The notes under the pieces: generated by a model
Seen by the model: the letters and a program-made list of their open reading frames with translations, nothing else
Database searches by the model: none
What the model was told of the DNA's origin: nothing
Shown here: piece after piece, positions 9,182-47,869 of the stretch
How positions within the stretch are numbered: the first letter of the stretch is position 1
Layout of the letters: every line of letters begins with the position of its first letter
Translations under genes and position numbers: made by a program
From: Chloroflexota bacterium
Lineage (GTDB): Bacteria > Chloroflexota > UBA11872
Length of the DNA stretch: 64,000 nucleotides
Assembly: GCA_965262745.1 (NCBI GenBank)
Contig: OZ253558.1
Location: 1,623,735-1,687,734, forward strand
Direction of reading: 5' to 3'

Positions 9182-9951
9182 ATATTCGAGCGGGACTGCC
9201 CGCCGTCCACGTTGATGCAGGCGCCGGTGACGAGGCTGGCCTGTTCCGAGGCCAGGAATGTCGCCACGGCGGCCACCTCCTCGGGACGGCCAAACCGGCC
9301 CATGGGCATATCGCGCTCGACGAACGCCGCGATGCCCTGGGGATCGCGGCGCTGTCGCCGCTCCCAGCCGCCGCCGGGAAACAGAATCGAGCCCGGCGCC
9401 ACGGCGTTGACCGTGATGCCAAAGGGCGCCAGCTCGTGCGCCATCGACGTTGCCAGACTATTCATCGCCGACTTGGCGGCGTTGTAGGCCGGTGGGCCGC
9501 CGCCCTCGCGGCCGTAGATGGACGTGATATGCACGATGCGGCCCCAGCCGCCGGCTTTCATGAGCGGCACCGCCGCACGGCTGGCCCGCACGGCCGCCCA
9601 TAGATTCAGGTCGAGCGTTGTGGACCAATGCTCGTCGGTGCCCGTCATGAAGCCGGTGTCGCCAGCCGAGCCGCCGACGTTGTTCACCAGCACGTGAATG
9701 CCCCCGAGCTCGGCCACCGTGCGCGCGACCGCCTGTGCCGGCGCGGCGACGTCGCGAATGTCGAGCTGGAGCGAGAACGCGCGAACACCGAGCGCCGAAA
9801 TCTCGTCGGCGGTGCGTTGCAGGTCCTCCACGCCTCGAGCCACAATCGCCACGTCACAACCCTCGGCAGCAAGCCCGAGGGCAATCGCCCGGCCGATACC
9901 ACGGCTCCCACCGGTCACGAGCGCGATTCGATCACGCAGGCCAACGTCCAT
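9178..9951 (-). CDS. SDR-family oxidoreductase (FabG-like)
   Basis: TGGSRGIGRAIA Rossmann motif, NNVG and the YxxxK catalytic pattern. Confidence 0.85.
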   Translation of the reverse strand: MDVGLRDRIALVTGGSRGIGRAIALGLAAEGCDVAIVARGVEDLQRTADEISALGVRAFSLQLDIRDVAAPAQAVARTVAELGGIHVLVNNVGGSAGDTGFMTGTDEHWSTTLDLNLWAAVRASRAAVPLMKAGGWGRIVHITSIYGREGGGPPAYNAAKSAMNSLATSMAHELAPFGITVNAVAPGSILFPGGGWERRQRRDPQGIAAFVERDMPMGRFGRPEEVAAVATFLASEQASLVTGACINVDGGQSRSNI

Positions 9952-10005
9952 CGGTGCACCCTGTTTCTACGCGGCGTTCGGCAACCCAAGCCCCCCACGT
10001 CCAGC

Positions 10006-29469: not shown

Positions 29470-31341
29470 CTATTCCGCCGGAACGCTGTTCTCCTCCGCC
29501 TGCGGCGAGTAGGGGAGATGTCCCGCTGGCAACGGTTCGCGGCGCTCCGCAACAAATCCCATGGCTTGGGCGTCGGCTGCAACCGAGGCAAGGCCAAGGT
29601 ATTCAATGGTGTCGGCAAATGGCCGGCCGGTCGCCGGGTCCCAGCCATGGTCGCGGTAGTAGGCCGTTACCTCGTCCCTGACGCCGGCCCGACTGAGCGG
29701 CTGGTTGCGCAGCGGCCCGTGGCGCAGCGGCTCGTGCAAGCGGTCCGGTAGGCGGTCGTCCTCCGGCTCCAGCCCTTCCCGAAGGTTGAAGAGCCGCGCC
29801 ATGGTGACGCCGCGCTCGAACGTCGCGTGCAACTCGTCCGGCGAAACATCCCAACCCGTGGCCGCGTTCAACAGACTCAGCGTCGTGGCCTCGTCGTACT
29901 GCAAGAAGTGACACAGGCCCACGGTATTGCGGAGCCCGGAACGCTTACCCGCGGCACCGGTGTGGTCGCCGCCGGTTGGAGCGACCGGATAGTTGCGGCG
30001 CATGCCCGGCATCGCGCGCGGATCGTGCATGGCTACTTCGAGCCCCTTCACGTGCACGACCCGCGCCTCGGCGTCGGCGCCGAGGGTGCGCGCCGCCCGC
30101 AGCGAGCCCTCGGCCAGGAGATCGCCCACGCCTTTACGGTGGGCGATCTTTCCGATCACGCGCAGCACGTCGTCGGCCGACCCGATGCGCAGCGTCTCAC
30201 CGTCGAGCTGCTGCTCGCCCAGCAAGCCAAGCTCGACCATTTCCATGGCCCAGGCGATCGTCGCGCCGCACGAAATGCTGTCCATGCCGAGCGCGTTGAG
30301 CATCTCGTGGCCCTTGCAGATGGCCATCACGTCGGTCACGCCCGTGTTGGGACCAATTGACGCCAGCGTCTCGTATTCCGGGCCGCCGTACTTGGGGTCC
30401 ACCGTGAGATCCGGACGCTTGATCTTGACGCGTTTCTTGCAGCGCACGGAGCAGGCGTAGCACCGGTCCATCTCGTGGTCGGTGAGTTCCTGGATGGCCA
30501 CGGCATCCACCCGGTCGGCGCCCTCCAGCCGGCCGTCGCGAAAGTTATGCGTGACCAGGTGACCCTCGAGCTGCTTCGATCTCACCATGGCGCCGGTGCC
30601 CCAGGTGTGGAGCCGATGGTGCGCCTCGCCTGGCGCCAGCGTCTCCTGCGCGACCCAGCGGGAAACTCCGGCAATCGCCCGGGGGTCGGCCGCTTGCACC
30701 GGCTGGGCACCGCGCACGGCAATGGCTTTCAGATTCTTCGATCCCATGACGGCGCCTAGGCCCGTGCGACCGGCCACCTCGTTGAGATCGTGAACGATGC
30801 AGGCAAACCGCACCAGGTTTTCCCCGGCCGGACCGATCTGGGCCACGCGAACGCGCGGGTCGCCCAACTCCTCCCGAATCTGAGATTCCACCGGCCCCGT
30901 TAGCTCGCCCCAGAGCGGCCGCGCGTCGCGCAGCTCGACCGCGTCGTCGTCGATCCAGAGGTACACGGGATGGGCCGCCCTCCCGTGCACGATGATGGCG
31001 TCCCAACCGGCGCGCTTGAGCTCGGCGCCCCAGTAGCCACCAGCCTCGGATTCACCAAAAAGGCCGGTGAGTGGCGACTTGGCGCCCACGCTGTGCCGGC
31101 TGCCGCCGGGAACGGAAACACCCGTAATCGGTCCGAGCGCGAACACGAGGCGGTTCGCTGGATCGAACGCATCGCTGCCCTGCGGGACTTCGGTAAGCAG
31201 CGTGTGGGCAATGACGTTGCGGCCGCCCATGTGCAGCCGCAGGAAGTCCGCGTCGGGCCGAACGGTCGCGATACGACCGGTGGTGAGATCGACGCGCAAG
31301 AAGCGCCGGCGCACCGAGCCCTTGGAGAGTGGCACCTTCAC
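29470..31341 (-). CDS. aor: Aldehyde:ferredoxin oxidoreductase (tungsten AOR family)
   Basis: 623-aa AOR family sequence (LRVDLTTG.., Cys ligands for the 4Fe-4S cluster, tungstopterin-binding regions). Confidence 0.85.
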   Translation of the reverse strand: MKVPLSKGSVRRRFLRVDLTTGRIATVRPDADFLRLHMGGRNVIAHTLLTEVPQGSDAFDPANRLVFALGPITGVSVPGGSRHSVGAKSPLTGLFGESEAGGYWGAELKRAGWDAIIVHGRAAHPVYLWIDDDAVELRDARPLWGELTGPVESQIREELGDPRVRVAQIGPAGENLVRFACIVHDLNEVAGRTGLGAVMGSKNLKAIAVRGAQPVQAADPRAIAGVSRWVAQETLAPGEAHHRLHTWGTGAMVRSKQLEGHLVTHNFRDGRLEGADRVDAVAIQELTDHEMDRCYACSVRCKKRVKIKRPDLTVDPKYGGPEYETLASIGPNTGVTDVMAICKGHEMLNALGMDSISCGATIAWAMEMVELGLLGEQQLDGETLRIGSADDVLRVIGKIAHRKGVGDLLAEGSLRAARTLGADAEARVVHVKGLEVAMHDPRAMPGMRRNYPVAPTGGDHTGAAGKRSGLRNTVGLCHFLQYDEATTLSLLNAATGWDVSPDELHATFERGVTMARLFNLREGLEPEDDRLPDRLHEPLRHGPLRNQPLSRAGVRDEVTAYYRDHGWDPATGRPFADTIEYLGLASVAADAQAMGFVAERREPLPAGHLPYSPQAEENSVPAE

Positions 31342-32732: not shown

Positions 32733-34730
32733 ATGACAACTGACCAGATCGCTCACCATTCCTCCGAGGCGTCGCAACTCTTCGAGCCGCCGCCGGCGTT
32801 CGCCGCGCGCGCGCGCATCGGCTCGATGGAGCAGTACCGCGAGCTCTATCGACGCAGCCTTGACGAGCCGGAAGCTTTTTGGCGCGAGATCACGGACGGC
32901 TTCGAGTGGATGAAGCCGTGGACCACGCTTCTCGAGTGGGAGCCGCCGTTCGCCAAGTGGTTCGTCGACGGCACCACCAACATCAGCGTGAATTGCTTGG
33001 ATCGTCACGTGGCCGCCGGTCGCGGCGATCGCGTCGCGTACTACTGGGAAGGCGAGCCGGGCGATACGCGCGTCATCACCTACGCCGAGCTTCTGCGCGA
33101 CGTGCAGCGATTTGCCAATGCGCTGCGTGGGCTAGGGCTGAAGCGCGGCGAGCGCGTGCTGCTCTACATGCCCATGGTGCCCGAGTTGCCGGTGGCCATG
33201 CTGGCCTGCGCCCGCCTGGGCCTGGTCCACAGCGTTGTGTTCGGCGGGTTCAGCGCCGATGCCATTCGCGACCGCGTGAATGACGCCGGCGCCTCGCTGG
33301 TAATCACCGCCGACGGCGGCTGGCGTCGCGGCCGCGTGATCCCGCTGAAAGCCAATGTTGACGCCGCCCTGGCGGACGGCGCCTGCCCGTCGGTTGGCAA
33401 CGTGATCGTGCTGCGGCGTTGCGCCAACGACATCGCCTGGGTCGACGGACGTGACGTGTGGTGGGACGACGCCATCGCCGGGCAGTCCGACGAATGCCCG
33501 GCGGCAGAGCTTCCCGCCGAGCATCCGCTATACATCCTCTACACCAGCGGCACCACCGGTAAGCCCAAGGGCGTCGTGCACACCACGGCGGGCTACATGG
33601 TCTACACCGCCGCCACCGCCAAGTTGATCTTCGACCTGCGCGACGACGACATCTACTGGTGCACCGCCGACATCGGCTGGGTCACGGGGCACAGCTACAT
33701 CGTCTACGGCATCCTCGGCAACGGCGCCACAAGCGTGATCTACGAAGGCGCGCCCAACGCACCGAAAGAGGATCGCTTCTGGGCCATCGTCGAGAAATAC
33801 GCCGTCACGGTGCTGTATACGGCTCCCACGGCCATTCGGACGTTCGTGCGCTGGGGCGACGAGCACCCCAACGCGCACGATCTCACCAGCCTGCGGCTGC
33901 TCGGGACCGTCGGCGAGCCGATCAACCCCGATGCGTGGTTGTGGTATCACCGCGTCATCGGCGGCGGGCGCTGCCCCATCGTGGATACCTGGTGGCAGAC
34001 GGAGACCGGCGGCATCCTCATCACGCCGCTGCCGGGCGCCATTCCGCAAAAGCCTGGCTCGGCCACACTCCCGTTCCCCGGAACCGAGCCGGAAATCGTC
34101 GACGAGCAGGGGGAATCCCTGCCCGACGGCACTCGCGGCCTCTTGGTGCTGAATCGCCCCTGGCCGGGAATGCTGCGCGGCATCTATAAGGACGGGTGGG
34201 GCATTCCGGGACACCCGGGCGAGCACGGCGACGCCGAGCGTTTCATGGAGCAGTATTGGGCCAAGTTCCCCGGGCGCTATCTGACCGGCGACGGGGCCGT
34301 GCGCGACGCCGACGGCTATTTCTGGATCATTGGGCGGGTCGACGACACGCTCAATGTGTCGGGGCACCGCATTGGCACGGCGGAGGTCGAGAGCGCCCTG
34401 GTCAGCCATCCCGCGGTGGCGGAATCCGCGGTCGTCGGCACACCGGACCCCATCACCGGGGAATCCATCGCCGCCTTCGTCACGCTGCGCGGCGGCATCG
34501 ACACCTCGGATGAGATGCAGGCCGAGTTGGTGGCGCACGTGGGCGAAAAGTTGGGAGGCTTTGCGCGACCCAAGCAACTTCGATTTGCCGACGCCCTGCC
34601 CAAGACCCGCAGCGGCAAGATCATGCGGCGGTTGCTGCGCGATATCGCCGCCGGCCGCGAGGTCGTGGGCGATACCACCACGCTCGAGGATCTCACGGTG
34701 GTGGCTCAGCTACGGGGCGAGGAGGAATAG
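32733..34730 (+). CDS. acs: Acetyl-CoA synthetase
   Basis: AMP-forming Acs family ([20 protein letters not shown], conserved C-terminal Lys); start at MTTDQIAHH inside the longer ORF. Confidence 0.9.
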
Positions 34731-34837
34731 CCGCCCTGCACCGACCCTCGATCCCGCCCACCATTGCCATCGAAGGTAATACCATGGCCGCGCCGTCGCG
34801 ATCTGGGCGGCGCCACTCAGCGGAGCAACGCAGGTCT

Positions 34838-35407
34838 ATGCACGTCACCGGGTCCAGCCGAACCGCGCGCCTCGGGCGCGTCATCTGCGCGTTTCTGAGC
34901 GGTGTTTTCCTCGCCGGCGCCGTCGCGGCTTGCGGCGAATCCAGCCGCTTCAGCCACATCGCGCCAACCCCCGAACCCACCCCGGTCGTCGTCCAGCTGC
35001 TCGCCATGGTCCCCTCTGGACGCACGATGCCTCCGGTGGCGCCGTCACCGCCCGCCCGCACGCCGGAGACGGTAACCACCATGGCGGCGCCAACGCCCAT
35101 CGTCATCGAGACGCCGACCGAAGTCGTGGACGAGACGCCGAGCCCGACGCCGACCGAGCCGCCCACAGGCCCGTTCACACCCGAAGAAATCGGTAGCCAA
35201 CTCTTTGTCGACAACGGCTGCTTCGTCTGCCACGCCGAAGACCTCAGCGGCGGCATCGGCCCGGCCCTTGCGGGGCGCACACCGGAGGACCTGACGGATG
35301 ACCGCATTCGATCGCAGATCGGCACCGGTGGAAACGGGATGCCGTTCTTTGAAAACCTCACGGCGGAGCAAATCGAACAGCTCATGGCGTTCATTCGCAG
35401 TTCCTAG
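34838..35407 (+). CDS. Lipoprotein c-type cytochrome (class I) with Pro/Thr-rich linker
   Basis: Lipobox LAGAVAACGE, PT-rich spacer, single CFVCH haem-binding motif, then GGNGMP. Confidence 0.7.
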   Translation: MHVTGSSRTARLGRVICAFLSGVFLAGAVAACGESSRFSHIAPTPEPTPVVVQLLAMVPSGRTMPPVAPSPPARTPETVTTMAAPTPIVIETPTEVVDETPSPTPTEPPTGPFTPEEIGSQLFVDNGCFVCHAEDLSGGIGPALAGRTPEDLTDDRIRSQIGTGGNGMPFFENLTAEQIEQLMAFIRSS

Positions 35408-35476
35408 GCAGCCATGACAATCCGCGGCTGTACGCCGGACGTAGAATTTGAGGGAAGGCGGGTAAGGAGCGCTGGC

Positions 35477-36139
35477 ATGCGGAGGATGATCGCTGCGTGC
35501 ATCGCCGTCGCCGCGGCTGCGGTCGTCCTGACCGCGTGCGGCGAAGCCGCCGAGCCCGCAGCACCCGCCGCCGAGGTGAAATACGCGGCAATCGAAGCGC
35601 CCGCGCCGCCCACGGCAACGGATACCCCCGCCCCTCCGCCCGCGCCAACGCCGCAACTGACTCCTACGCCGGTTCCACAGCCGGCTGCCCCGGCAAGGGC
35701 GGCCGCCGTCGACTTCTCGCTCCCGAGCGCCCAGGGCCCGCAATACACCCTGAGCTCCTTCGCGGGACAGCGGCCGGTGGTCGTCGTCTTCTACCGCGCC
35801 TTCTGGTGAGGGACCTGCCGTACCCAGCTCGTGGAGCTGCAAAACGACTACCAGGACTTCCAATCGCGCGGCGTCGAAATCCTCGCCATCAGCACTGACA
35901 CGCTCAATGACACCGCCGGCATTGTTGAGCGGATCGGCCTGCAATTCCCGGTGCTCTACAACTCCGAGGGCGATGTCCCGCGCGCGTACGGCATCTTCGA
36001 TCTCTACGGCGACGGTCTCGCCACGGGGTCGGCGTTCCTGGTCGATCTTGATGGAAACCTGGCCTGGAGTTCGATCTACAGCGGCATTCACGACCTCATC
36101 AAGTCAGACGACATCCTGGCGGCCATCGACGCGCTGTAG
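35477..36139 (+). CDS. Candidate selenoprotein: lipoprotein thioredoxin-fold (TlpA/ResA-like) thiol-disulfide oxidoreductase with an in-frame TGA at 35807-35809
   Basis: Two track ORFs (35414-35809 and 35831-36139) share one frame and are separated only by a TGA that sits at the first-Cys position of the redox motif (FYRAFW-U-GTC); SD AAGGAG precedes the ATG at 35477. Confidence 0.5.
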
Positions 36140-36141
36140 AG

Positions 36142-36495
36142 CAACGGCGCCGCACGCACCCCGGAGAGCGTGACCACCATGGCGCCGCCGCCACGGTTGG
36201 GGCGGCGGCAACCCCGACCCCGAATGGCACGCCGCCCCCCACTCCAACGCCGAAGGTCCAGACCGACGAAGAGCCGCCCTGCCGGCAACTCTTCGTCGAC
36301 AACGGCTGCACGGTCTGCCACGGTGAAGACCTGAGCGGCGGAATCGGATCACCGCTTGCCGGCCGAGCCCCGGACGATCTCACGGAGGAGCGCATCCGCT
36401 CCCAACTCGCCGAGGGTGGAAACGGGATGCCGCCGTTTCCCGATCTGACGGAGGTTCAGATCGGTGAACTGATCGCGTGCATTCGCAGTTCGTAG
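36142..36495 (+). pseudogene. Degenerate duplicate of the cytochrome c gene 3' portion (CTVCH retained, no start)
   Basis: Frame-1 translation ..QLFVDNGCTVCHGEDLSGG..GGNGMPPFPDL..IACIRSS* parallels the end of the gene at 34838-35407; an indel breaks the upstream frame and there is no initiation codon. Confidence 0.4.
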
Positions 36496-36564
36496 GCCGC
36501 GATGGCAAACCGCGCCGGCTCGCTCAGCGTAGAATCTGAGGGAAGACGGGTGAGGAGTTTCGGC

Positions 36565-37635
36565 ATGCGGAGGATGATCGCCGCGTTAATCGCCATCGCC
36601 GCGGCTTCTGTAGTCATTGCGGCGTGCGGCGAATCCGCCGAGCCCGCGGAATCCGCCGCTGGAGCTGCCGTCGCCAGCGAGGCAACCGCGGCCCCCGCGC
36701 CGCCGACGGCAACGGTCACGCCCGCCCCTCCGCCCGCACCGGTGCCGACAGCCACCAGCCCACCGACGCCAGCCGCAACCCCGCCGCCGACCGCCACGGC
36801 GGTCGCGGGAGCGGCCCTGGCGGCCACTTCCGCACCGACTGCGGTAGTCGTCGCCGCGGCGCCGACGCCCACAGCCGCTCCCGCGCCGACCTCAACGCCG
36901 GCGCCCGCAGTAACGCCCACGCCGGCGCCCCTCCCGACCTCAACGCCGCAGCCCACGCCGACGACGGCCGCTGTGCCAACTCCAACTCCCGCACCAACGC
37001 CCGCACCGGCGCCCACGCCAACACCGCAGCCCACACCCGCGCCCACGGCAGCGCCGACGCCGACCCCCGCACCCCAGCCAACGCCGCAGCCGACACCCAC
37101 GCCCGCGCCAGAGCCCACGCCAACGCCGCAACCGACGCCGACGCCCGCGCCACAACCGACCCCAACGCCAACACCGCCACCCGCGCCAGCCAGGGCGGCC
37201 GCCGTCGACTTCTCGTTACCGAGTGCCCAAGGCCCGCAATACACCCTGAGTTCGTTTGCGGGACAGCAGCCGGTGGTGGTGGTCTTCTACCGGGCCTTCT
37301 GGTGAACGACCTGTCGCACGCAGCTCGTGGAGCTGCAGAACAACTACCAGGAGTTCGAATCGCGCGGCGTGGAAATCCTCGCCATAAGCACTGACACGCT
37401 CAATGACACCGCCGGCATTGTTGAGCGGATCGGCCTCCAATTCCCGGTGCTCTACAACACCGAGGGCGATGTTCCCCGGGCGTACGGCATCTTCAACCTC
37501 TACGGCGACGGTCTCGCCACAGGGTCAGCGTTCTTGGTCGATCGTGACGGGGGCCTGGCCTGGAGTTCTGTCTACAGCGGCATTCATGACCTGATCCCCT
37601 CAGCCGACATCCTGGCAGCCATCGACGCCCTCTAG
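36565..37635 (+). CDS. Candidate selenoprotein paralog: lipoprotein thiol-disulfide oxidoreductase with an expanded PT-rich linker and an in-frame TGA at 37303-37305
   Basis: Track ORFs 36502-37305 and 37327-37635 are in frame across the TGA (FYRAFW-U-TTC); SD GAGGAG precedes the ATG at 36565. Confidence 0.5.
36700..37190 (+). repeat. Coding low-complexity Pro/Thr/Ala-rich repeat region (linker)
   Basis: Reiterated [15 protein letters not shown] codon repeats inside the gene at 36565-37635. Confidence 0.7.
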
Positions 37636-37729
37636 GACACAAGCGCAGCCCGACGCGCGGTGCCTGTCCGCGACGCACGGCGGGTCACGCGCCTACAATC
37701 GCGCCCGCCCATACTGACGAAGAAAACCT

Positions 37730-38794
37730 ATGAGCAAACCGCTGCGGGCCGGCGTGGTCGGCCTCACCGGCATCGGCGCCAAACGGTCGGCCCCAGGCCC
37801 AGGCCCTGGCACCGGCGTTGAGATGCCTCACTCCCACGTCGGCGCCTACCTCCACGTCGCCGCCACCGAGCCCGTCGCGGTGTGCGACATCGTGCCCGAG
37901 AAGCTGGATGGCTTTCACCGCGACTGGGCCGACGTGTTGCCCGACACGCGCGGCTACACCGACTACCGCGAGATGTTGGCCCGCGAGCAACTGGACGTCA
38001 TCAGCGTCGCGACCCCCGACGACCGCCACGCACAGATAGTTGTCGACGCGGTGGCCGCCGGGGTGCGCGGCATCATCTGCGAGAAGCCCATTGCCTCGAC
38101 GCTGGCCGACGCCGACCGCATGATCGCCACCGTCGAAGCCGCGGGAGTCCCCATGCTGGTGGACCACACGCGGCGCTGGATGTTTCCCTGGGTGCAGGTG
38201 GCCGAGGTGATCGCCTCGGGGGAGATCGGCGAGGTGCAGCGCATTGCCGCCCAGCAGGGCGGTCCGCGCGCGATGCTGTTCCGCAACGGCACCCACATGT
38301 TCGACACCATCCTCTGGTTCGCCGGCGGCAGGCCCACCGCGGTCTACGCGCTCGCTGAAGCCGGCTTCGCCGACTACGGCCCTCGCTACGCCAGCGACGG
38401 CGGCCACGACCCCGACACCGATCCCGCCATGTCCGCCATCATCGAGTTCGACAACGGCGTTCGCGCATTCTGGAACATGTGCAAGACCATGCCGCAGGTA
38501 TTCGATGTCGCCGTATTCGGCACCTCCGGTATCGTGCGCGTCGGCGACTCGGACGACGCCACCGTCACCGTCAAGGACAGCGGCGGCTTGAAACAGCGCT
38601 CGCTTCCCCGGCCGCAATACACGCTCGGCCACATCGCCGGCTGCGTCGACGAGATGGTGCATCTGATCAACCACGGCGGCCGCCCCTCAATGGACGGTCG
38701 CACCTCGCGCCAGGTCGTCGAAGTGCTCCTGGCCGCGCTGCAGTCGCAACACGCCGGCAACGCCCGCATCACCCTCCCCATCAGCGACGCCTAG
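37730..38794 (+). CDS. Gfo/Idh/MocA family oxidoreductase
   Basis: N-terminal Rossmann fold (RAGVVGLTGIG), EKP motif, C-terminal alpha/beta domain. Confidence 0.85.
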   Translation: MSKPLRAGVVGLTGIGAKRSAPGPGPGTGVEMPHSHVGAYLHVAATEPVAVCDIVPEKLDGFHRDWADVLPDTRGYTDYREMLAREQLDVISVATPDDRHAQIVVDAVAAGVRGIICEKPIASTLADADRMIATVEAAGVPMLVDHTRRWMFPWVQVAEVIASGEIGEVQRIAAQQGGPRAMLFRNGTHMFDTILWFAGGRPTAVYALAEAGFADYGPRYASDGGHDPDTDPAMSAIIEFDNGVRAFWNMCKTMPQVFDVAVFGTSGIVRVGDSDDATVTVKDSGGLKQRSLPRPQYTLGHIAGCVDEMVHLINHGGRPSMDGRTSRQVVEVLLAALQSQHAGNARITLPISDA

Positions 38795-38929: not shown

Positions 38930-39925
38930 CTAGAGCGACTTGATATAGGCCACGATCGCCAGCAGCTCTTCCCGCGAGAGCAGCGTATCGAGGTCGGCCT
39001 GCATCAGGCCCGGCTCGAATCCCGCCACGACTTCCGTGTTGGGATCGACGATCGCCCGCAGCAGATAGGCGTCGTCGGCGATCACCGTTGAGCCATCCGA
39101 CAGCGTTACCTGGCTGACGTAGAGGCCCTGCCAGGTGGGGCCGATGCCCTCAGACCCGTCGCTGCTGTGACAGGCCTCACAGCCGACGGCACGAACCAGC
39201 ACGGCCCCCAGGCCAGGATCGGGCGCCGCCGGCGTGGGAGTCGGTGTTGGCTGTGGCGTGGGCGTCGGCTGTGGCGTCGGCGTGGGCACTGGCACCGGCG
39301 TCGGTGTGGGAGTCGGTTCCGGCGTGGGCGTCGGCATGGGGGTCGGGGTGGGTTCGGGCGTGGGTGTGGGCTCTGGTGTCGCTGTCGGCGTCGGGGTCGG
39401 CTCCGGCGTTGGTGACGGAGTCGGGGCAGGCGTAGGTGTCGGCGTGGCCGTAGCTGTCGGCGTCGGTTCCGGCGTCGGCGTGGCTTCCGGTGTGGCTGTG
39501 GATTCGAGCGTGGGCGTCGGCGTGGGGTCCGAGGTGGGCGACGGCGCGGGCGTGGGTTCAACCGTGGGTGTCGGCTCCGGCGATGGTGTGGGCGCTGGGG
39601 TCAGCGTGGGCTTTGGCGTCGCCGGTGGCTCCGGCGTTGAGGCCGATGTGGGCTCCGGCGTGGACGTGGACTCTGACGTCGGCGCGGGCGCGAGCGTCGG
39701 TGTAGGCGCCAGCATCGCCGCAGTCGCCGGTGTTGACGCAGGCGTGGGCGCCAGGGTGGGAGATGGCGCCACCGTCGTACCCGCTGCTGGCGGCGCCGAG
39801 GCTTCCCCGCACGCCAGGCACAGAAGGCCTATCGCGACAATGAGGCCCGCTATCCGGAAGCTGCCTACCGAACCATGCGATTCGCGCGTAGGCGCGCGCC
39901 GACGACCGCTTTCGTGTCTACGCAC
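38930..39925 (-). CDS. Lipoprotein c-type cytochrome with a long Pro/Thr-rich linker
   Basis: GTG start, lipobox LLCLACGE, about 180 aa of PTPEPTPT repeats, CEACH haem motif and a class I cyt c C-terminal domain. Confidence 0.7.
39230..39790 (-). repeat. Coding low-complexity Pro/Thr-rich repeat region (cytochrome c linker)
   Basis: Reiterated GGTGTGGGCGTCGGC-type units on the plus strand, equivalent to PTPEPTPTP codon repeats. Confidence 0.7.
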
Positions 39926-44737: not shown

Positions 44738-45643
44738 ATGAACCGCACACACTCCTGCGAACCCACGATGACCGATGAGGACGTGGTGTGGTTCTGCCGC
44801 AACGGCTACTGGATTCTCGAAGCCGTCGTGCCAGACGAGATCAACCGGCGAGCGCTGGACTACCTGGCGTCGAACACGCACTTGGAACCCACCGAGATCA
44901 TGGCGGAGGACTGGTTCGTCGACGGCGTAATTCTCAACCCCGCGGCCGCCGGGGCGGTGCGCTCGCTGCTGGGAGACGACTTCGCCTTGCCGACGCTGAT
45001 GGCAAATCATCGCGGCACGGGCCCGGCCAAGCCGCAGGATTGGCACCGGGACAGCGGCTCACGCCATGGCCCGGAGCTCAACTACCTACAGGTCTTCTAC
45101 TACCCCCAAGACGTGCCGCGGGAGATGGGTCCCACCGAGCTGCTGCCGGGCTCGCACTTCCTCTATCAGCGCGAAAAGCTGATGGCGCACTACGGCGCGA
45201 TCAAGGGCGGCGTGCTCACCACCGGGCCGGCCGGTTCCGTTTTCATCACGTCATACAACATCTGGCACCGCCGAGCGGCCCGCACGGCGACAGCGGCGGC
45301 CGGTGTGCGCAACTTGCTGAAATACAACTACTGGCGCACCGCCGACCCGCGGCGGGACTGGATCGTGAGCCCGGAGTTTGACGTCGCGTCGGCGGATTTC
45401 GTTGTGGACGGGGTGCGGTTCTCCGAGGCGGTCCGCGACTGCGTCGACGCGGCCGAGATGTATTACTGGCTCAGCGGCAAGATCGACGAGTTTCACTATC
45501 TGGGCGGCCAGTCGTGGCCCGCGGACATCCTGCAAACCAAGCCCGCGCCCGGTACCCACGAAGGCGCCAGATACCGCCGGCGCTACGGCGTCCCAGGCGA
45601 CGTTACCGATCGACGGAGTCGGCAATCCGGGCGGCTCCGGTGA
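44738..45643 (+). CDS. Phytanoyl-CoA dioxygenase (PhyH) family Fe(II)/2OG oxygenase, paralog 1
   Basis: PhyH-type double-stranded beta-helix; HxD...H facial triad region (WHRD, NIWHRR). Confidence 0.75.
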   Translation: MNRTHSCEPTMTDEDVVWFCRNGYWILEAVVPDEINRRALDYLASNTHLEPTEIMAEDWFVDGVILNPAAAGAVRSLLGDDFALPTLMANHRGTGPAKPQDWHRDSGSRHGPELNYLQVFYYPQDVPREMGPTELLPGSHFLYQREKLMAHYGAIKGGVLTTGPAGSVFITSYNIWHRRAARTATAAAGVRNLLKYNYWRTADPRRDWIVSPEFDVASADFVVDGVRFSEAVRDCVDAAEMYYWLSGKIDEFHYLGGQSWPADILQTKPAPGTHEGARYRRRYGVPGDVTDRRSRQSGRLR

Positions 45644-45736
45644 GGTGAAGGACGACGCCGGCCGCACGCGGCCGCCCCAGTGCCGAGCTAGGATGGGGTG
45701 CGCGAGCGCCACGGCGCGACCGGCGGAGGTCAACTG

Positions 45737-46105
45737 ATGAAGGACCCGCGGCAGATGGTGCGGCAGTGCATCGACGAGCTGCGCGAAGGGCGCCTGACCG
45801 AGGAGCGGCTGCACGAACTGGAGGACGCCCTCGGCGCGGAGCGACCGCGGCGCTGGGACCTGCTGTACCTCCAGGCGGCCAAGTCGTCGGAAGCCTCGGA
45901 CGTCGTCGGGATGCGCCTGATCCGCAACGGCGAGGTGGTGTATCCGCTGCCGGCGCCCGAGGACTGGCCCTATAAGACCGTGCTGGACGCCATCAACGAC
46001 GGCTGGCGGGTGGTGAAGTTCCCCGAGCTGGCGCTGCTGATGGACGAGGGCCGCACCTACGGGCTCTCCTGCGAGTTCATCCTGGAACGGAGGGCCGCCG
46101 CATGA
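45737..46105 (+). CDS. Hypothetical small protein between the PhyH paralogs
   Basis: SD GGAGG precedes the ATG at 45737; stop overlaps the next start (ATGA); no recognisable domain. Confidence 0.4.
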   Translation: MKDPRQMVRQCIDELREGRLTEERLHELEDALGAERPRRWDLLYLQAAKSSEASDVVGMRLIRNGEVVYPLPAPEDWPYKTVLDAINDGWRVVKFPELALLMDEGRTYGLSCEFILERRAAA

Positions 46106-47016
46106 CCATGACCAAGCGCACCTACTCCAGCGCGCCGACCATGACGGATGACGACGTGATCTGGTTCTGCCGCAATGGGTACTGGATTCTGGAAGGCGTG
46201 GTGCCCGACGAGATCAACCGGCGAGCCATGGACTATCTGGACGCACATCCGATCTCGGAGCCTTCGGGAATCCTGGAAGAGGATTGGTTCATCGAGAACG
46301 TGATCGTCAACCCCGCAGCGGCTGGAGCGGTGCGCTCGCTCCTCGGCGACAACTTCACGCTCCCCGTACTGATGTCGAATCACCGGGGCACCGGCCCGCG
46401 GCATCCGCAGGACTGGCACCGGGACGGCGGCTCGCGTTACGGCCCCGAGGTGAACTACCTCCAGGTCTTCTACTACCCACAAGACGTACCGCCCGAGATG
46501 GGCCCGACCGAGCTATTGCCGGGCTCGCACTTTCTCTACCAGCGGGAAAAGCACATGGCGCACTACGACGCGGTCAAAGGGAGCGTGCTGACCGCCGCGC
46601 CGGCAGGCTCGATCTTCCTCACCTCCTACAACATCTGGCACCGGCGCGGCGCGCGCACGGCGCCTGAGTCCGCCGGCATTCGAAACCTGCTGAAATACAA
46701 CTACTGGCGCACGGAAGATCCCCAGCGGGATTGGATCCAAGAGCCGGACTTCGACATCGAGTTTGCCGACTTCGTGGTGGACAGCCTGCGCCATTCGGAG
46801 TTGATGCGCGATTGCGTCGATGCGGCCGAAATGTATTTCTGGCTCTGCGGCAAGTCCGACGAGTTCCGCTACCTGGGCGGGCAGGGTTGGCCGGGCGATA
46901 TCCCCGAGAACAAGGCCACGCCCGAGGCGATCGCCCGCACGCGCTACCGCCACCGCTACGGGGTACCCGGGGACATGACGGACCGCGGCGGACGGCGCGC
47001 GGCACGCATCTGGTGA
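46102..47016 (+). CDS. PhyH-family dioxygenase, paralog 2
   Basis: About 70% aa identity to paralog 1 over its full length. Confidence 0.75.
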   Translation: MTMTKRTYSSAPTMTDDDVIWFCRNGYWILEGVVPDEINRRAMDYLDAHPISEPSGILEEDWFIENVIVNPAAAGAVRSLLGDNFTLPVLMSNHRGTGPRHPQDWHRDGGSRYGPEVNYLQVFYYPQDVPPEMGPTELLPGSHFLYQREKHMAHYDAVKGSVLTAAPAGSIFLTSYNIWHRRGARTAPESAGIRNLLKYNYWRTEDPQRDWIQEPDFDIEFADFVVDSLRHSELMRDCVDAAEMYFWLCGKSDEFRYLGGQGWPGDIPENKATPEAIARTRYRHRYGVPGDMTDRGGRRAARIW

Positions 47017-47017
47017 C

Positions 47018-47869
47018 ATGATCTGGGACATCGAGCGGCACGCGGCCGAGATCGAGCGCGATGGCTACACCATCATGGAGCGCGTGCTGCCACAAGCTGA
47101 GATTGACGCTACGCGCGCCGCCATCGAGGAGACGCTGGCCGCCGAGGAGACCATCGGGCGCAAGTACGGCCTGCAGAGCGCCAACCTTCGGATGGTATTC
47201 AACGCCCAGGCCAAGCACCGCCACTTCCACGGCCTGCCGCTGCGGTACCCGGCGCCCGTGGAAGTGGCGCAGCGGGTGCTCGGCGACGACATGTTTGCCC
47301 ACGACGTCACCATCCGGGTGCCCATGCCGACCGGCGAGAAAGACCACCGCCGATTCGGCGGCAACCTGCACGCTGACTGGAGCGATTTCACCGTCAAACC
47401 GTTCCTCGGCGGCCGGCACTACGCGATGGGCATCCAGGCGGCCTGGGCCCTCACGGAGTTCTCAACGGAAACCGGCGGGCCGGTGGTCTGGCCCGGGTCG
47501 CACCTCGCCGTCGAGATTCCACCCGAGGAGCCGGAGACGCTTCCGCCCGGGTGGAAGATCGCCGAAGCGCCGGCGGGATCGGTGCTGCTTTGGGACGCCG
47601 GTTTGTGGCACACCGGCGGCACCAACCACGGCAACCAGCCGCGCTACTCGCTGATCCTCTTCTTCCAGCGCTGGTGGGTGAAGGGCTTCAACGACTCCTA
47701 TCGCTACATGCCTCCCGACATGCGCGAGAAGATGTCGCTGGCCGAACGCCAGTTCTGGGGACTGGAAGCCGGGGTCCCGCCCAACACCCACTTCCGCGGC
47801 ATGAGCCGCGAGCAGATCGAGGCGCTGACGCCGGCCGAGAAGGCCGTGCTCAACATCGCGGCGTACTAG
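47018..47869 (+). CDS. PhyH-family dioxygenase, divergent paralog 3
   Basis: PhyH-like sequence (LHADWSD.., GSVLLWDAGLWHTGG); start abuts the preceding stop. Confidence 0.7.
   Translation: MIWDIERHAAEIERDGYTIMERVLPQAEIDATRAAIEETLAAEETIGRKYGLQSANLRMVFNAQAKHRHFHGLPLRYPAPVEVAQRVLGDDMFAHDVTIRVPMPTGEKDHRRFGGNLHADWSDFTVKPFLGGRHYAMGIQAAWALTEFSTETGGPVVWPGSHLAVEIPPEEPETLPPGWKIAEAPAGSVLLWDAGLWHTGGTNHGNQPRYSLILFFQRWWVKGFNDSYRYMPPDMREKMSLAERQFWGLEAGVPPNTHFRGMSREQIEALTPAEKAVLNIAAY

What the first reader, a model, noticed from the sequence alone, without database searches (positions are those of the whole stretch)
35477..37635. Two tandem thiol-disulfide oxidoreductase genes with an in-frame TGA at the CxxC first-Cys position: candidate UxxC selenoproteins
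- Shown by the sequence: in both paralogs the reading frame continues across a single TGA (35807-35809; 37303-37305) into a conserved thioredoxin-fold C-terminal half (..VELQNDYQDFQSRGVEILAISTD..).
- The TGA sits exactly where TlpA/ResA/AhpC-TSA redoxins have the first Cys of the W-C-x-x-C motif (FYRAFW-TGA-GTC-RTQ and FYRAFW-TGA-TTC-RTQ).
- The Cys two residues downstream is kept, by a synonymous TGC/TGT difference between the copies.
- A conserved hairpin (G)CAGCTC-GTG-GAGCTG(C) lies 16-17 nt downstream of each TGA and could act as a bacterial SECIS.
- The upstream halves carry lipoprotein signals and PT-rich linkers.
- Established knowledge: Sec-for-Cys at redox-active CxxC sites is the classic signature of bacterial selenoprotein redoxins.
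Basis: partly seen in the sequence, partly recalled or inferred. Interest (0 to 1): 0.75.

Follow-up and report, generated by a model that had tools for sequence, protein, structure and literature searches.

The report
Two selenocysteine-encoding lipoprotein redoxin genes
Two neighbouring genes for membrane-anchored redox proteins each carry an in-frame TGA that almost certainly encodes selenocysteine, making them unannotated Chloroflexota members of a selenoprotein class known since the mid-2000s.

Summary
Both genes (35477-36139 and 36565-37635) read through one TGA into a complete AhpC-TSA/redoxin domain, giving F-Y-R-A-F-W-U-x-x-C. All 53 readable gene copies from about 45 Chloroflexota/SAR202 contigs have TGA at this codon, never TAA or TAG. 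This holds down to 31% protein identity and from 32% to 69% GC. The Cys three codons later is invariant. Differences between the two paralogs downstream of the TGA are mostly synonymous. Orthologs with Cys at the site exist, one in the same gene neighbourhood. TGA is an ordinary stop elsewhere in the window.

A 5-7 bp hairpin with a G-first loop follows every TGA and never shows an A-C mismatch at one synonymous pair. The encoded Q-L-x-E-L peptide partly forces this hairpin, and three of five Cys forms keep it.

I could not check selA/selB/selC/selD in the source genome. Support for them is from the literature only.

[quoted passage not shown] What is new: the Chloroflexota lineage, the lipoprotein anchor, the tandem copies, the pairing with a lipoprotein cytochrome c, and the fact that public gene calls split or mistranslate them. 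The finding is real but of modest novelty.

The parts
35477..36139 (+). Sec-redoxin gene copy 1: 220 codons including one UGA, then a TAG stop. Layout: lipoprotein signal, PT-rich linker, Prx-fold UxxC domain.
   Evidence: AAGGAG Shine-Dalgarno at 35464-35469. Orthologous N-terminal fragments start at MRRM.
35477..35539 (+). Signal peptide with lipobox (MRRMIAACIAVAAAAVVLTAC, lipidated Cys at codon 21).
   Evidence: Nearly all orthologs show a hydrophobic stretch followed by [LVA][AST][AG]C.
35807..35809 (+). In-frame TGA, the predicted selenocysteine codon of copy 1.
   Evidence: TGA at this codon in 41/41 loci, in 9/9 extra tandem copies and in L048.
35816..35818 (+). Resolving Cys codon (TGC) of U-G-T-C.
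   Evidence: T and G of this codon are invariant in 43 sequences; the third base is C or T.
35825..35839 (+). Candidate SECIS hairpin CAGCUC-GUG-GAGCUG (6 bp, loop GUG), starting 15 nt after the UGA.
36565..37635 (+). Sec-redoxin gene copy 2: 356 codons including one UGA, then a TAG stop. Same layout with a longer PT/PA linker (36628-37194).
37303..37305 (+). In-frame TGA, the predicted selenocysteine codon of copy 2.
37312..37314 (+). Resolving Cys codon (TGT) of U-T-T-C.
37320..37336 (+). Candidate SECIS hairpin GCAGCUC-GUG-GAGCUGC (7 bp, -11.6 kcal/mol for the 24-nt segment).
34784..35407 (+). Lipoprotein c-type cytochrome (CxxCH, PT-rich linker) immediately upstream. It is the conserved partner of the redoxin in this clade. 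The true start is possibly the ATG at 34838.
   Evidence: Pfam Cytochrome_CBB3/Cytochrom_C. The cyt c-redoxin order is conserved in L001-L008.
36142..36496 (+). Remnant of a second cytochrome c copy. The CxxCH domain is present, but there is no start codon or signal, and there is a frameshift relative to copy 1.
   Evidence: The same gene is intact in L004 and L006.

Best explanation
Both genes are genuine selenoprotein genes.

Recoding (inferred). The UGA is read as selenocysteine by Sec-tRNA(Sec) and SelB. A small stem-loop (CA[G/A]CU-N3-5-AG[C/U]UG, G first in the loop) 14-15 nt downstream probably directs this.

Product. It is exported and lipid-anchored through an N-terminal lipobox. A PT-rich tether holds it away from the membrane. 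It ends in a peroxiredoxin-fold domain whose redox centre is W-U-x-x-C.

Active site. The selenolate sits at the N-cap of the active-site helix, where the attacking Cys of a thioredoxin-type CxxC motif sits. The Cys three residues later occupies the position of the peroxiredoxin peroxidatic Cys.

Mechanism (inferred). The selenolate attacks an oxidised substrate on the outer face of the membrane. The Cys at +3 then forms an intramolecular Se-S bond, which a thiol-reducing system re-reduces.

My estimate of the substrate:
- a disulfide, about 45%; in this clade it is plausibly the CxxCH site of the co-encoded lipoprotein cytochrome c, in the manner of ResA/CcmG;
- a hydroperoxide, about 35%;
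- something else, about 20%.

Shown: UGA conservation, selection beyond the UGA, Cys orthologs, the fold of a Cys homolog, the lipobox, and cyt c linkage in this clade. Inferred: Sec insertion itself, SECIS function, substrate and reductant.
For: - TGA is in frame and the domain spans it.
- All close database homologs are split exactly there, into N-fragments ending FYRAFW and 102-aa C-fragments.
- TGA occurs at the same codon in 41/41 Chloroflexota loci, in 9/9 extra tandem copies and in a 32%-GC relative, never TAA or TAG. C-terminal identity to the window falls as low as 31%.
- The Cys at +3 is invariant with TGC/TGT variation.
- Differences between the paralogs are mostly synonymous downstream of the TGA.
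- Cys orthologs exist (FYRAYWCSAC, FYRAFWCTNC and others). P0052 sits in the same TyrRS/aminotransferase/DUF1015 neighbourhood as the SAR202 Sec forms.
- TGA ends 12 of 29 ordinary ORFs in the window.
- The hairpin is present in all 44 Sec forms checked. The pair Gln-wobble/Leu-first-base is AU 22, GC 17, GU 4 and A-C 0. This includes CAA/TTG in a 67%-GC genome and CTC/GAG retained in a 32%-GC genome.
- The structure of Cys homolog P0084 (pLDDT 97.8) puts Cys37 at the N-cap of helix 38-49. TM is 0.88 to AhpE.
- A lipobox is present in nearly all orthologs.
[quoted passage not shown] As 'Prx-like 1' it has 225 members in GOS (PMC2398784).
- Literature: Chloroflexi use Sec. All nine Chloroflexi bins of a sponge metagenome carry SelA, SelB and SelD COGs (PMC5649159 Table S4).
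Against: - No tRNA-Sec, selA, selB or selD is present in the 64-kb window or in 744 kb of related loci. The rest of the source genome could not be read.
- The hairpin is short and not more stable than shuffled sequence.
- It matches no Rfam family.
- Three of five Cys homologs that encode Q-L-x-E-L also have it. It could therefore be largely a consequence of the peptide, or a fossil SECIS.
- The GC content of the genomes explains part of the CAG/CTG versus CAA/TTG association.
- There are no ccdA/resBC/sco neighbours.
- The cytochrome c neighbour is confined to this clade, so the substrate assignment is weak.
- No experimental data exist for any member.
Confidence: 0.87

Rival explanations
1. 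The genes are genuine selenoproteins but act as seleno-peroxidases, not thiol-disulfide oxidoreductases. The Sec is oxidised by H2O2 or an organic hydroperoxide and resolved by the Cys at +3, like a glutathione peroxidase built on a peroxiredoxin scaffold.
For: - The nearest characterised relatives are AhpE-type peroxiredoxins at 36-40% identity.
- The best solved-structure matches include AhpE.
- The retained Cys aligns with the peroxidatic Cys.
- From established knowledge: GPx also carries Sec at the N-cap of the equivalent helix.
Against: - The peroxiredoxin active-site Pro, Thr and Arg are all replaced: Arg, Sec, and Thr/Ser-Gly/Ala.
- In other UxxC selenoproteins the Sec replaces the attacking Cys of a CxxC disulfide-exchange motif (PMC9312934).
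Confidence: 0.35
2. The TGAs are nonsense mutations. The genes are pseudogenes, or only the truncated N-terminal lipoprotein is made.
For: All public gene calls stop at the TGA. Sec machinery was not seen in the sequence available.
Against: - The same TGA is kept in 53 copies across deeply diverged genomes, never replaced by another stop codon.
- The downstream sequence is under purifying selection, with an invariant Cys and conserved motifs.
- The N-terminal fragment alone would be a signal peptide, a linker and 36 residues of a broken fold.
Confidence: 0.02
3. The TGA is translated, but as a standard amino acid (Trp, Cys or Gly), through suppression or a variant genetic code rather than as selenocysteine.
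For: One source pipeline translated a relative with TGA = Trp (P0083). Sec machinery is unverified here.
Against: - TGA terminates 12 of 29 well-formed ORFs in the window.
- The site is the redox-active Cys position, and homologs carry Cys there, not Trp or Gly.
- Sec use is documented in Chloroflexi and in sponge-associated Chloroflexi bins.
Confidence: 0.04
4. Each locus makes two separate products: the N-terminal lipoprotein, and an independent 102-aa protein started at the GTG inside the hairpin (35831 and 37327).
For: Gene callers predict exactly these ORFs.
Against: - The seven codons between the TGA and the GTG are conserved in frame and contain the invariant Cys.
- In the SAR202 orthologs that codon is GGG or GGA, which is not a start codon.
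- The C-fragment lacks the first strands, the active-site helix cap and any signal peptide.
Confidence: 0.02

Closest known systems
Prx-like thiol:disulfide oxidoreductase selenoproteins ('Prx-like 1' of the GOS survey; prototype WP_010940744.1 of Geobacter sulfurreducens)
   Same: AhpC-TSA (pfam00578) domain with Sec as the first residue of a UxxC redox motif. Cys homologs are common. Already reported as one of the most abundant marine selenoprotein families.
   Different: Described mainly from Deltaproteobacteria, Clostridia and anonymous marine reads. This is a Chloroflexota/SAR202 subfamily with the motif FYRA[FY]W-U-x-x-C, a lipoprotein anchor with a PT-rich tether, tandem copies and a cytochrome c partner.
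AhpE-type 1-Cys peroxiredoxin (Mycobacterium tuberculosis Rv2238c, PDB 1XXU/1XVW)
   Same: Closest solved structures by sequence (E 2e-9) and by fold (TM 0.88 for the Cys homolog). The retained Cys aligns with the peroxidatic Cys.
   Different: AhpE is cytoplasmic and has P-x-x-x-T-x-x-C plus a catalytic Arg. Here Pro is replaced by Arg, Thr by Sec, and the Arg is absent.
ResA / TlpA / CcmG extracytoplasmic thiol-disulfide oxidoreductases
   Same: Membrane-tethered on the outer face, with a W-C-x-x-C-type motif. ResA is equally close in sequence (E 4e-9; best NCBIfam hit). ResA reduces apocytochrome c, and a c-type cytochrome is co-encoded here.
   Different: The score is far below the ResA family cut-off (52.5 against 170 bits). 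The fold is nearer to Prx. No ccdA/resB/resC genes are linked. It carries Sec instead of Cys.
PrxU, the selenocysteine peroxiredoxin of Eubacterium acidaminophilum (NF040737; TxxU)
   Same: Sec-containing protein of the AhpC-TSA fold.
   Different: In PrxU, Sec replaces the peroxidatic Cys (T-x-x-U). Here it replaces the Thr position (U-x-x-C). The score is 39.7 against 270 bits.
SelL and SelL-related redox proteins (NF040769)
   Same: Prx-like fold with a U/C-x-x-U/C motif at the same place. Second-best NCBIfam hit.
   Different: 48 bits against a cut-off of 120. SelL is eukaryotic, with UxxU.
Rcas_1661 family thioredoxin-like (seleno)lipoprotein (NF041057)
   Same: A curated family of lipoprotein selenoproteins with a thioredoxin-like fold. 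I infer from the locus-tag prefix that it is named after a Roseiflexus (Chloroflexi) gene. It is a precedent for exported lipid-anchored selenoproteins.
   Different: Only 28.5 bits against a cut-off of 190, and the match covers mostly the signal and linker region. It is a different family.

Membership tests
Bacterial selenoprotein gene (UGA read as Sec) | In-frame UGA with a coding sequence conserved on both sides | tested here: met
Bacterial selenoprotein gene (UGA read as Sec) | UGA conserved at the same codon in orthologs | tested here: met
   53 of 53 readable copies have TGA.
Bacterial selenoprotein gene (UGA read as Sec) | Homologs with Cys aligned to the UGA | tested here: met
   P0049, P0052, P0061, P0062, P0077 and P0084. 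P0052 is syntenic.
Bacterial selenoprotein gene (UGA read as Sec) | SECIS stem-loop shortly downstream of the UGA with a G in the apical loop. The bSECISearch-type criteria used here (16-37 nt from UGA to loop) are recalled from memory. | tested here: inconclusive
   A hairpin is present in all Sec forms, 21 nt from the UGA to a loop that starts with G, with 0 A-C mismatches at the covarying pair. It is also kept in 3 of 5 Cys forms, is not stable beyond shuffles and has no Rfam match.
Bacterial selenoprotein gene (UGA read as Sec) | selA, selB, selC (tRNA-Sec) and selD in the same genome | not testable with these tools
   Absent from the window and from 42 loci. The rest of the genome was unreachable. 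A SelA search listed only Aquificae. Literature support only.
Bacterial selenoprotein gene (UGA read as Sec) | Selenium in the mature protein | not testable with these tools
   Needs 75Se labelling or mass spectrometry.
Prx-like thiol:disulfide oxidoreductase selenoprotein class (pfam00578, UxxC/UxxU) | AhpC-TSA (PF00578) domain | tested here: met
   E 3e-27 and 1.5e-28, above the gathering score.
Prx-like thiol:disulfide oxidoreductase selenoprotein class (pfam00578, UxxC/UxxU) | Sec as the first residue of a UxxC motif at the redox site | tested here: met
   W-U-G-T-C and W-U-T-T-C. The class definition comes from PMC9312934.
Prx-like thiol:disulfide oxidoreductase selenoprotein class (pfam00578, UxxC/UxxU) | Orthology with the prototype WP_010940744.1 | not tested
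Peroxiredoxin (AhpE/BCP type) | P-x-x-x-T-x-x-C active-site motif | tested here: not met
   The aligned residues are R-A-F-W-U-G-T-C, so Pro becomes Arg and Thr becomes Sec.
Peroxiredoxin (AhpE/BCP type) | Conserved catalytic Arg | tested here: not met
   The aligned segment is L-A-T-G-S-A-F or L-A-S-A-S-x-F. No Arg is present in any Sec form.
Peroxiredoxin (AhpE/BCP type) | Peroxiredoxin fold | tested here: met
   Model of Cys homolog P0084: pLDDT 97.8, TM 0.88 to AhpE and Bcp4. The window protein itself could not be submitted.
ResA/TlpA/CcmG cytochrome-maturation redoxins | Family HMM score above the curated cut-off | tested here: not met
   NF002854 ResA scores 52.5 against 170 bits. TlpA scores 28.2 against 230.
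ResA/TlpA/CcmG cytochrome-maturation redoxins | Extracytoplasmic membrane tether and a W-C-x-x-C motif | tested here: met
   Lipobox. W-U-x-x-C motif.
ResA/TlpA/CcmG cytochrome-maturation redoxins | Linkage to ccdA/resB/resC or ccm genes | tested here: not met
   None among 124 neighbouring ORFs of 33 loci, nor among the window neighbours. Only a c-type cytochrome is linked, and only in this clade.

The most novel reading that the evidence does not exclude
In this Chloroflexota clade, which is probably sponge-associated, a lipoprotein c-type cytochrome and a lipoprotein Sec-redoxin form a dedicated, duplicated two-gene module on the outer face of the membrane. The selenoprotein either serves as a private apocytochrome c reductase, or the haem protein exchanges electrons directly with the selenoprotein (a cytochrome c-driven selenoperoxidase). 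SelB would recognise an unusually small 5-7 bp SECIS embedded in a conserved Q-L-x-E-L-Q coding segment.
Probability: 0.12. Interest if true: 0.6.

Novelty: new member of a known kind. Interest (0 to 1): 0.3.

Why it matters
Public annotation misses these genes. Every close homolog in a 5.8-billion-protein collection is a truncated fragment or a mistranslation. No NCBIfam model reaches its cut-off, so these genes will keep being called as fragments.

The family is present throughout SAR202 and related Chloroflexota, an abundant ocean and sponge-symbiont lineage. It is also in the cultured strain Ca. Lucifugimonas marina JH545, so selenium incorporation could be tested directly.

It adds an exported, lipid-anchored selenoenzyme to the selenoproteome of this phylum. 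It also implies a selenium requirement for these organisms. It does not change what is known about how selenoproteins work.

Tried and rejected
- **Sec machinery in held sequence.** ARAGORN and Rfam found only tRNA-Val in the window and no tRNA-Sec in 42 loci. A tblastn with E. coli SelA, SelB and SelD against the window and loci gave no hits. The SelA query was later confirmed exact against PDB 8UZW.
- **Finding SelA of the same genome by contig length.** I searched the protein collection with Aquifex SelA. Only the best 120 of 8000 candidates were listed, and all were Aquificae-like. This was a dead end.
- **Identifying the source record.** Exact look-ups of the window's own proteins were not on record. 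The cluster look-up gave no accession numbers or names.
- **Other selenoprotein genes.** I scanned the window and loci for TGA-joined coding segments and for UxxC/CxxU contexts. Only noise and adjacent genes came up.
- **A larger SECIS.** The outer helix predicted for copy 2 is not kept in close relatives, and RNAalifold keeps only the core stem.
- **Rfam at a permissive threshold** around the TGA gave nothing relevant.
- **Promoter and terminator scan** of 34600-37900 found none.
I used Cys homolog P0084 instead.
- **SAR202 papers.** The cultivation paper and genome papers do not mention selenoproteins.
- **Rejected readings:** pseudogene, code reassignment and two independent ORFs (see the rival explanations).
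Full report
**What is in the sequence**

Two tandem genes lie on the + strand, at 35477-36139 and 36565-37635. Each starts with ATG behind a good Shine-Dalgarno sequence. Each encodes a lipoprotein signal (..VVLTAC|GE..VVIAAC|GE) and a PT/PA-rich linker. After F-Y-R-A-F-W each meets a single TGA, at 35807-35809 and 37303-37305. The same frame continues for 109 more codons to a TAG.

With the TGA written as Cys, Pfam AhpC-TSA and Redoxin match across the TGA (E 3e-27 and 1.5e-28). The motif is W-U-G-T-C in copy 1 and W-U-T-T-C in copy 2. The Cys is three codons after the TGA, TGC in one copy and TGT in the other.

The region after the TGA looks like coding sequence (GC3 0.80-0.83, GC2 about 0.40). 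Between the two paralogs it has 21 synonymous and 11 non-synonymous codon differences.

**Is it more than chance or decay?**

A search of the large protein collection found no full-length close homolog. Every relative above 60% identity is one of two things:
- an N-terminal fragment ending in ...FYRAFW, or
- a 102-residue fragment starting at the GTG just after the site.

A scan of one genome per species returned 42 loci. All but one are labelled Chloroflexota, Dehalococcoidia or SAR202; the exception (L018) is discussed below. One locus is the closed genome of the cultured strain Ca. Lucifugimonas marina JH545.
- In 41 of the 42 loci the codon can be read, and in all 41 it is TGA, never TAA or TAG. 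The C-terminal half is only 31-90% identical to the window.
- The close clade (L001-L008) has two or three tandem copies, and all nine extra copies also have TGA.
- A 32%-GC relative, whose source pipeline had translated the codon as Trp, also has TGA.

That makes 53 of 53 readable copies. The Cys codon three positions later is invariant apart from its third base.

TGA is a normal terminator in the window, ending 12 of 29 well-formed ORFs. The genome therefore has no general reassignment of TGA.

**Cys counterparts**

I ran an exhaustive profile search with the C-terminal half against 1.84 billion representative proteins. It found many more about-100-residue fragments. It also found full-length proteins with Cys at the site: FYRAYWCSAC, FYRAFWCTNC, FYRAWWCLYC and FYRGFFCGIC.

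One of these, P0052, sits between tyrosyl-tRNA synthetase, a class-V aminotransferase, a Cys-less AhpC-TSA paralog and DUF1015. This is the same neighbourhood as the SAR202 Sec forms, so it is a true Sec/Cys ortholog pair.

**The hairpin**

All Sec forms have CA[G/A]CU-N3-5-AG[C/U]UG starting 14-15 nt after the TGA. The first loop base is G in at least 90% of them.

One pair joins the wobble base of a Gln codon to the first base of a Leu codon, and both changes are synonymous. That pair is A-U in 22 sequences, G-C in 17, G-U in 4, and never A-C.

GC content explains part of this association, but not all:
- Among loci of 51-61% GC, A always goes with U.
- One 67%-GC genome (L006) carries the rare pair CAA/TTG, while its sisters carry CAG/CTG.
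- The 32%-GC relative keeps CTC and GAG.

Four points count against over-reading the hairpin:
- It is short and no more stable than shuffled sequence.
- It matches no Rfam family.
- The codons for Q-L-x-E-L are intrinsically self-complementary.
- Of five Cys homologs examined at the DNA level, the three that encode Q-L-x-E-L keep the stem and the two others have lost it.

Remnant SECIS-like structures in Cys forms derived from Sec forms have been described before (PMC1794560). I therefore rate the SECIS assignment as probable, not shown.

**Sec machinery**

- The window and 744 kb of related loci hold no tRNA-Sec, selA, selB or selD.
- The one attempt to reach SelA of the same contig through the protein collection failed.

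Indirect support comes from the literature:
- Chloroflexi are recorded as Sec users (PMC1794560).
- Chloroflexi tRNA-Sec species have been described (PMC5389517).
- In a sponge metagenome, all nine Chloroflexi bins, five of them SAR202, carry the SelA, SelB and SelD COGs (PMC5649159 Table S4).

The closest relatives of the window include MAGs whose names suggest a sponge origin. That is my inference from the names, not a tested result.

**What the protein is**

By sequence, the domain is equally distant from two groups (E about 1e-9 for each): the 1-Cys peroxiredoxin AhpE of M. tuberculosis, and ResA of B. subtilis. Among named database proteins, AhpE-type peroxiredoxins are nearest, at 36-40% identity.

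A confident model of Cys homolog P0084 (pLDDT 97.8) has the peroxiredoxin fold, with TM 0.88 to AhpE. It places the Sec-equivalent Cys at the N-cap of the active-site helix and the second Cys in its first turn.

In the alignments, Sec takes the place of the peroxiredoxin Thr, and the retained Cys takes the place of the peroxidatic Cys. The peroxiredoxin Pro and Arg are missing. The result is a CxxC-type redox centre on a peroxiredoxin scaffold. [quoted passage not shown] As 'Prx-like 1', that class has 225 selenoprotein sequences in the GOS ocean survey (PMC2398784).

No NCBIfam model reaches its cut-off. The best are ResA, SelL-related, PrxU, WAxxUGC and the Rcas_1661 (seleno)lipoprotein family, and all fall far below.

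**Location and context**

Nearly all orthologs begin with a lipobox signal, so the family is extracytoplasmic and lipid-anchored.

In the window's clade, the gene follows a lipoprotein c-type cytochrome. In L004 and L006 the whole pair is duplicated intact. In the window, the second cytochrome copy (36142-36496) has lost its start and carries a frameshift.

In SAR202 the neighbours are different, and no ccdA, resBC or sco genes are linked anywhere.

**Mechanism**

I commit to this account. SelB-dependent insertion of Sec occurs at the UGA, and the product is exported and lipidated. The exposed selenolate attacks an oxidised substrate. The Cys at +3 resolves the intermediate to an Se-S bond. 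An unidentified reductant regenerates the protein.

A disulfide substrate is my first choice. In this clade it is plausibly the CxxCH site of the partner apocytochrome. A hydroperoxide substrate is a close second. Neither has been tested.

**Verdict**

The genes belong to a known kind of selenoprotein. They are new, unannotated members from a lineage where this has not been pointed out: a search of the held papers for SAR202 together with selenium terms found nothing relevant. Interest is modest. The result is useful for annotation and for selenium biology of SAR202 and sponge symbionts, but it would not surprise a specialist.

Noticed in passing
window 36142-36496 (+): A second copy of the cytochrome c gene keeps its CxxCH domain. 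It has no start codon or signal peptide and is frameshifted relative to copy 1. The equivalent gene is intact in L004 (10362-10919) and L006 (10344-10916), so the ancestral unit was (lipoprotein cytochrome c + Sec-redoxin) x 2.
   Followed up: yes
window 38930-39925 (-): A third lipoprotein-like c-type cytochrome with a very long PT-rich linker lies 1.3 kb downstream on the other strand.
   Followed up: partly
L048 114-635; protein P0083: A 32%-GC relative is stored in the protein collection with Trp at the Sec position. The DNA has TGA, so the source pipeline used a TGA=Trp code. Selenoprotein genes can therefore hide as 'W' variants as well as split ORFs.
   Followed up: yes
proteins P0104, P0134, P0057 and P0081; locus L042: Multi-domain relatives exist. 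In some, a Cys-type redoxin domain is followed by a Sec-type domain cut at FYRAFW. In others, a SurA-like N-terminus and a TlpA-like WCPPC domain precede the redoxin domain.
   Followed up: no
L015, L024, L028-L032, L043 (just downstream of the Sec gene): SAR202 loci carry a second AhpC-TSA paralog with no active-site Cys at all (..LFVPSVDDELD..) next to the Sec-redoxin.
   Followed up: partly
window 35440-35476 and 36528-36564: A conserved intergenic block (GTAGAAT[T/C]TGAGGGAAG.CGGGT.AGGAG) precedes both redoxin start codons. It contains TAGAAT and a Shine-Dalgarno sequence. The sigma-70 consensus scan found no promoter.
   Followed up: partly
window, whole: TAG is the commonest stop codon among well-formed ORFs (13 TAG, 12 TGA, 4 TAA), which is unusual for a 67%-GC genome. 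Both redoxin genes and the cytochrome c gene end in TAG.
   Followed up: no
L018 (CAJWOI010000282.1): This contig is labelled as an Alphaproteobacteria MAG. Its redoxin region is nearly identical to that of the Chloroflexi-labelled contig L017, so it is probably binning contamination.
   Followed up: no
L040 around 9860-10000: The N-terminal half of the redoxin gene is disrupted by several stops. This is the only locus where the TGA codon could not be read. It may be a pseudogene or an assembly problem.
   Followed up: no
window 29470-31341 (-) and 44738-47869 (+): The window holds an aldehyde:ferredoxin oxidoreductase family gene and three tandem PhyH-type dioxygenase paralogs.
   Followed up: no
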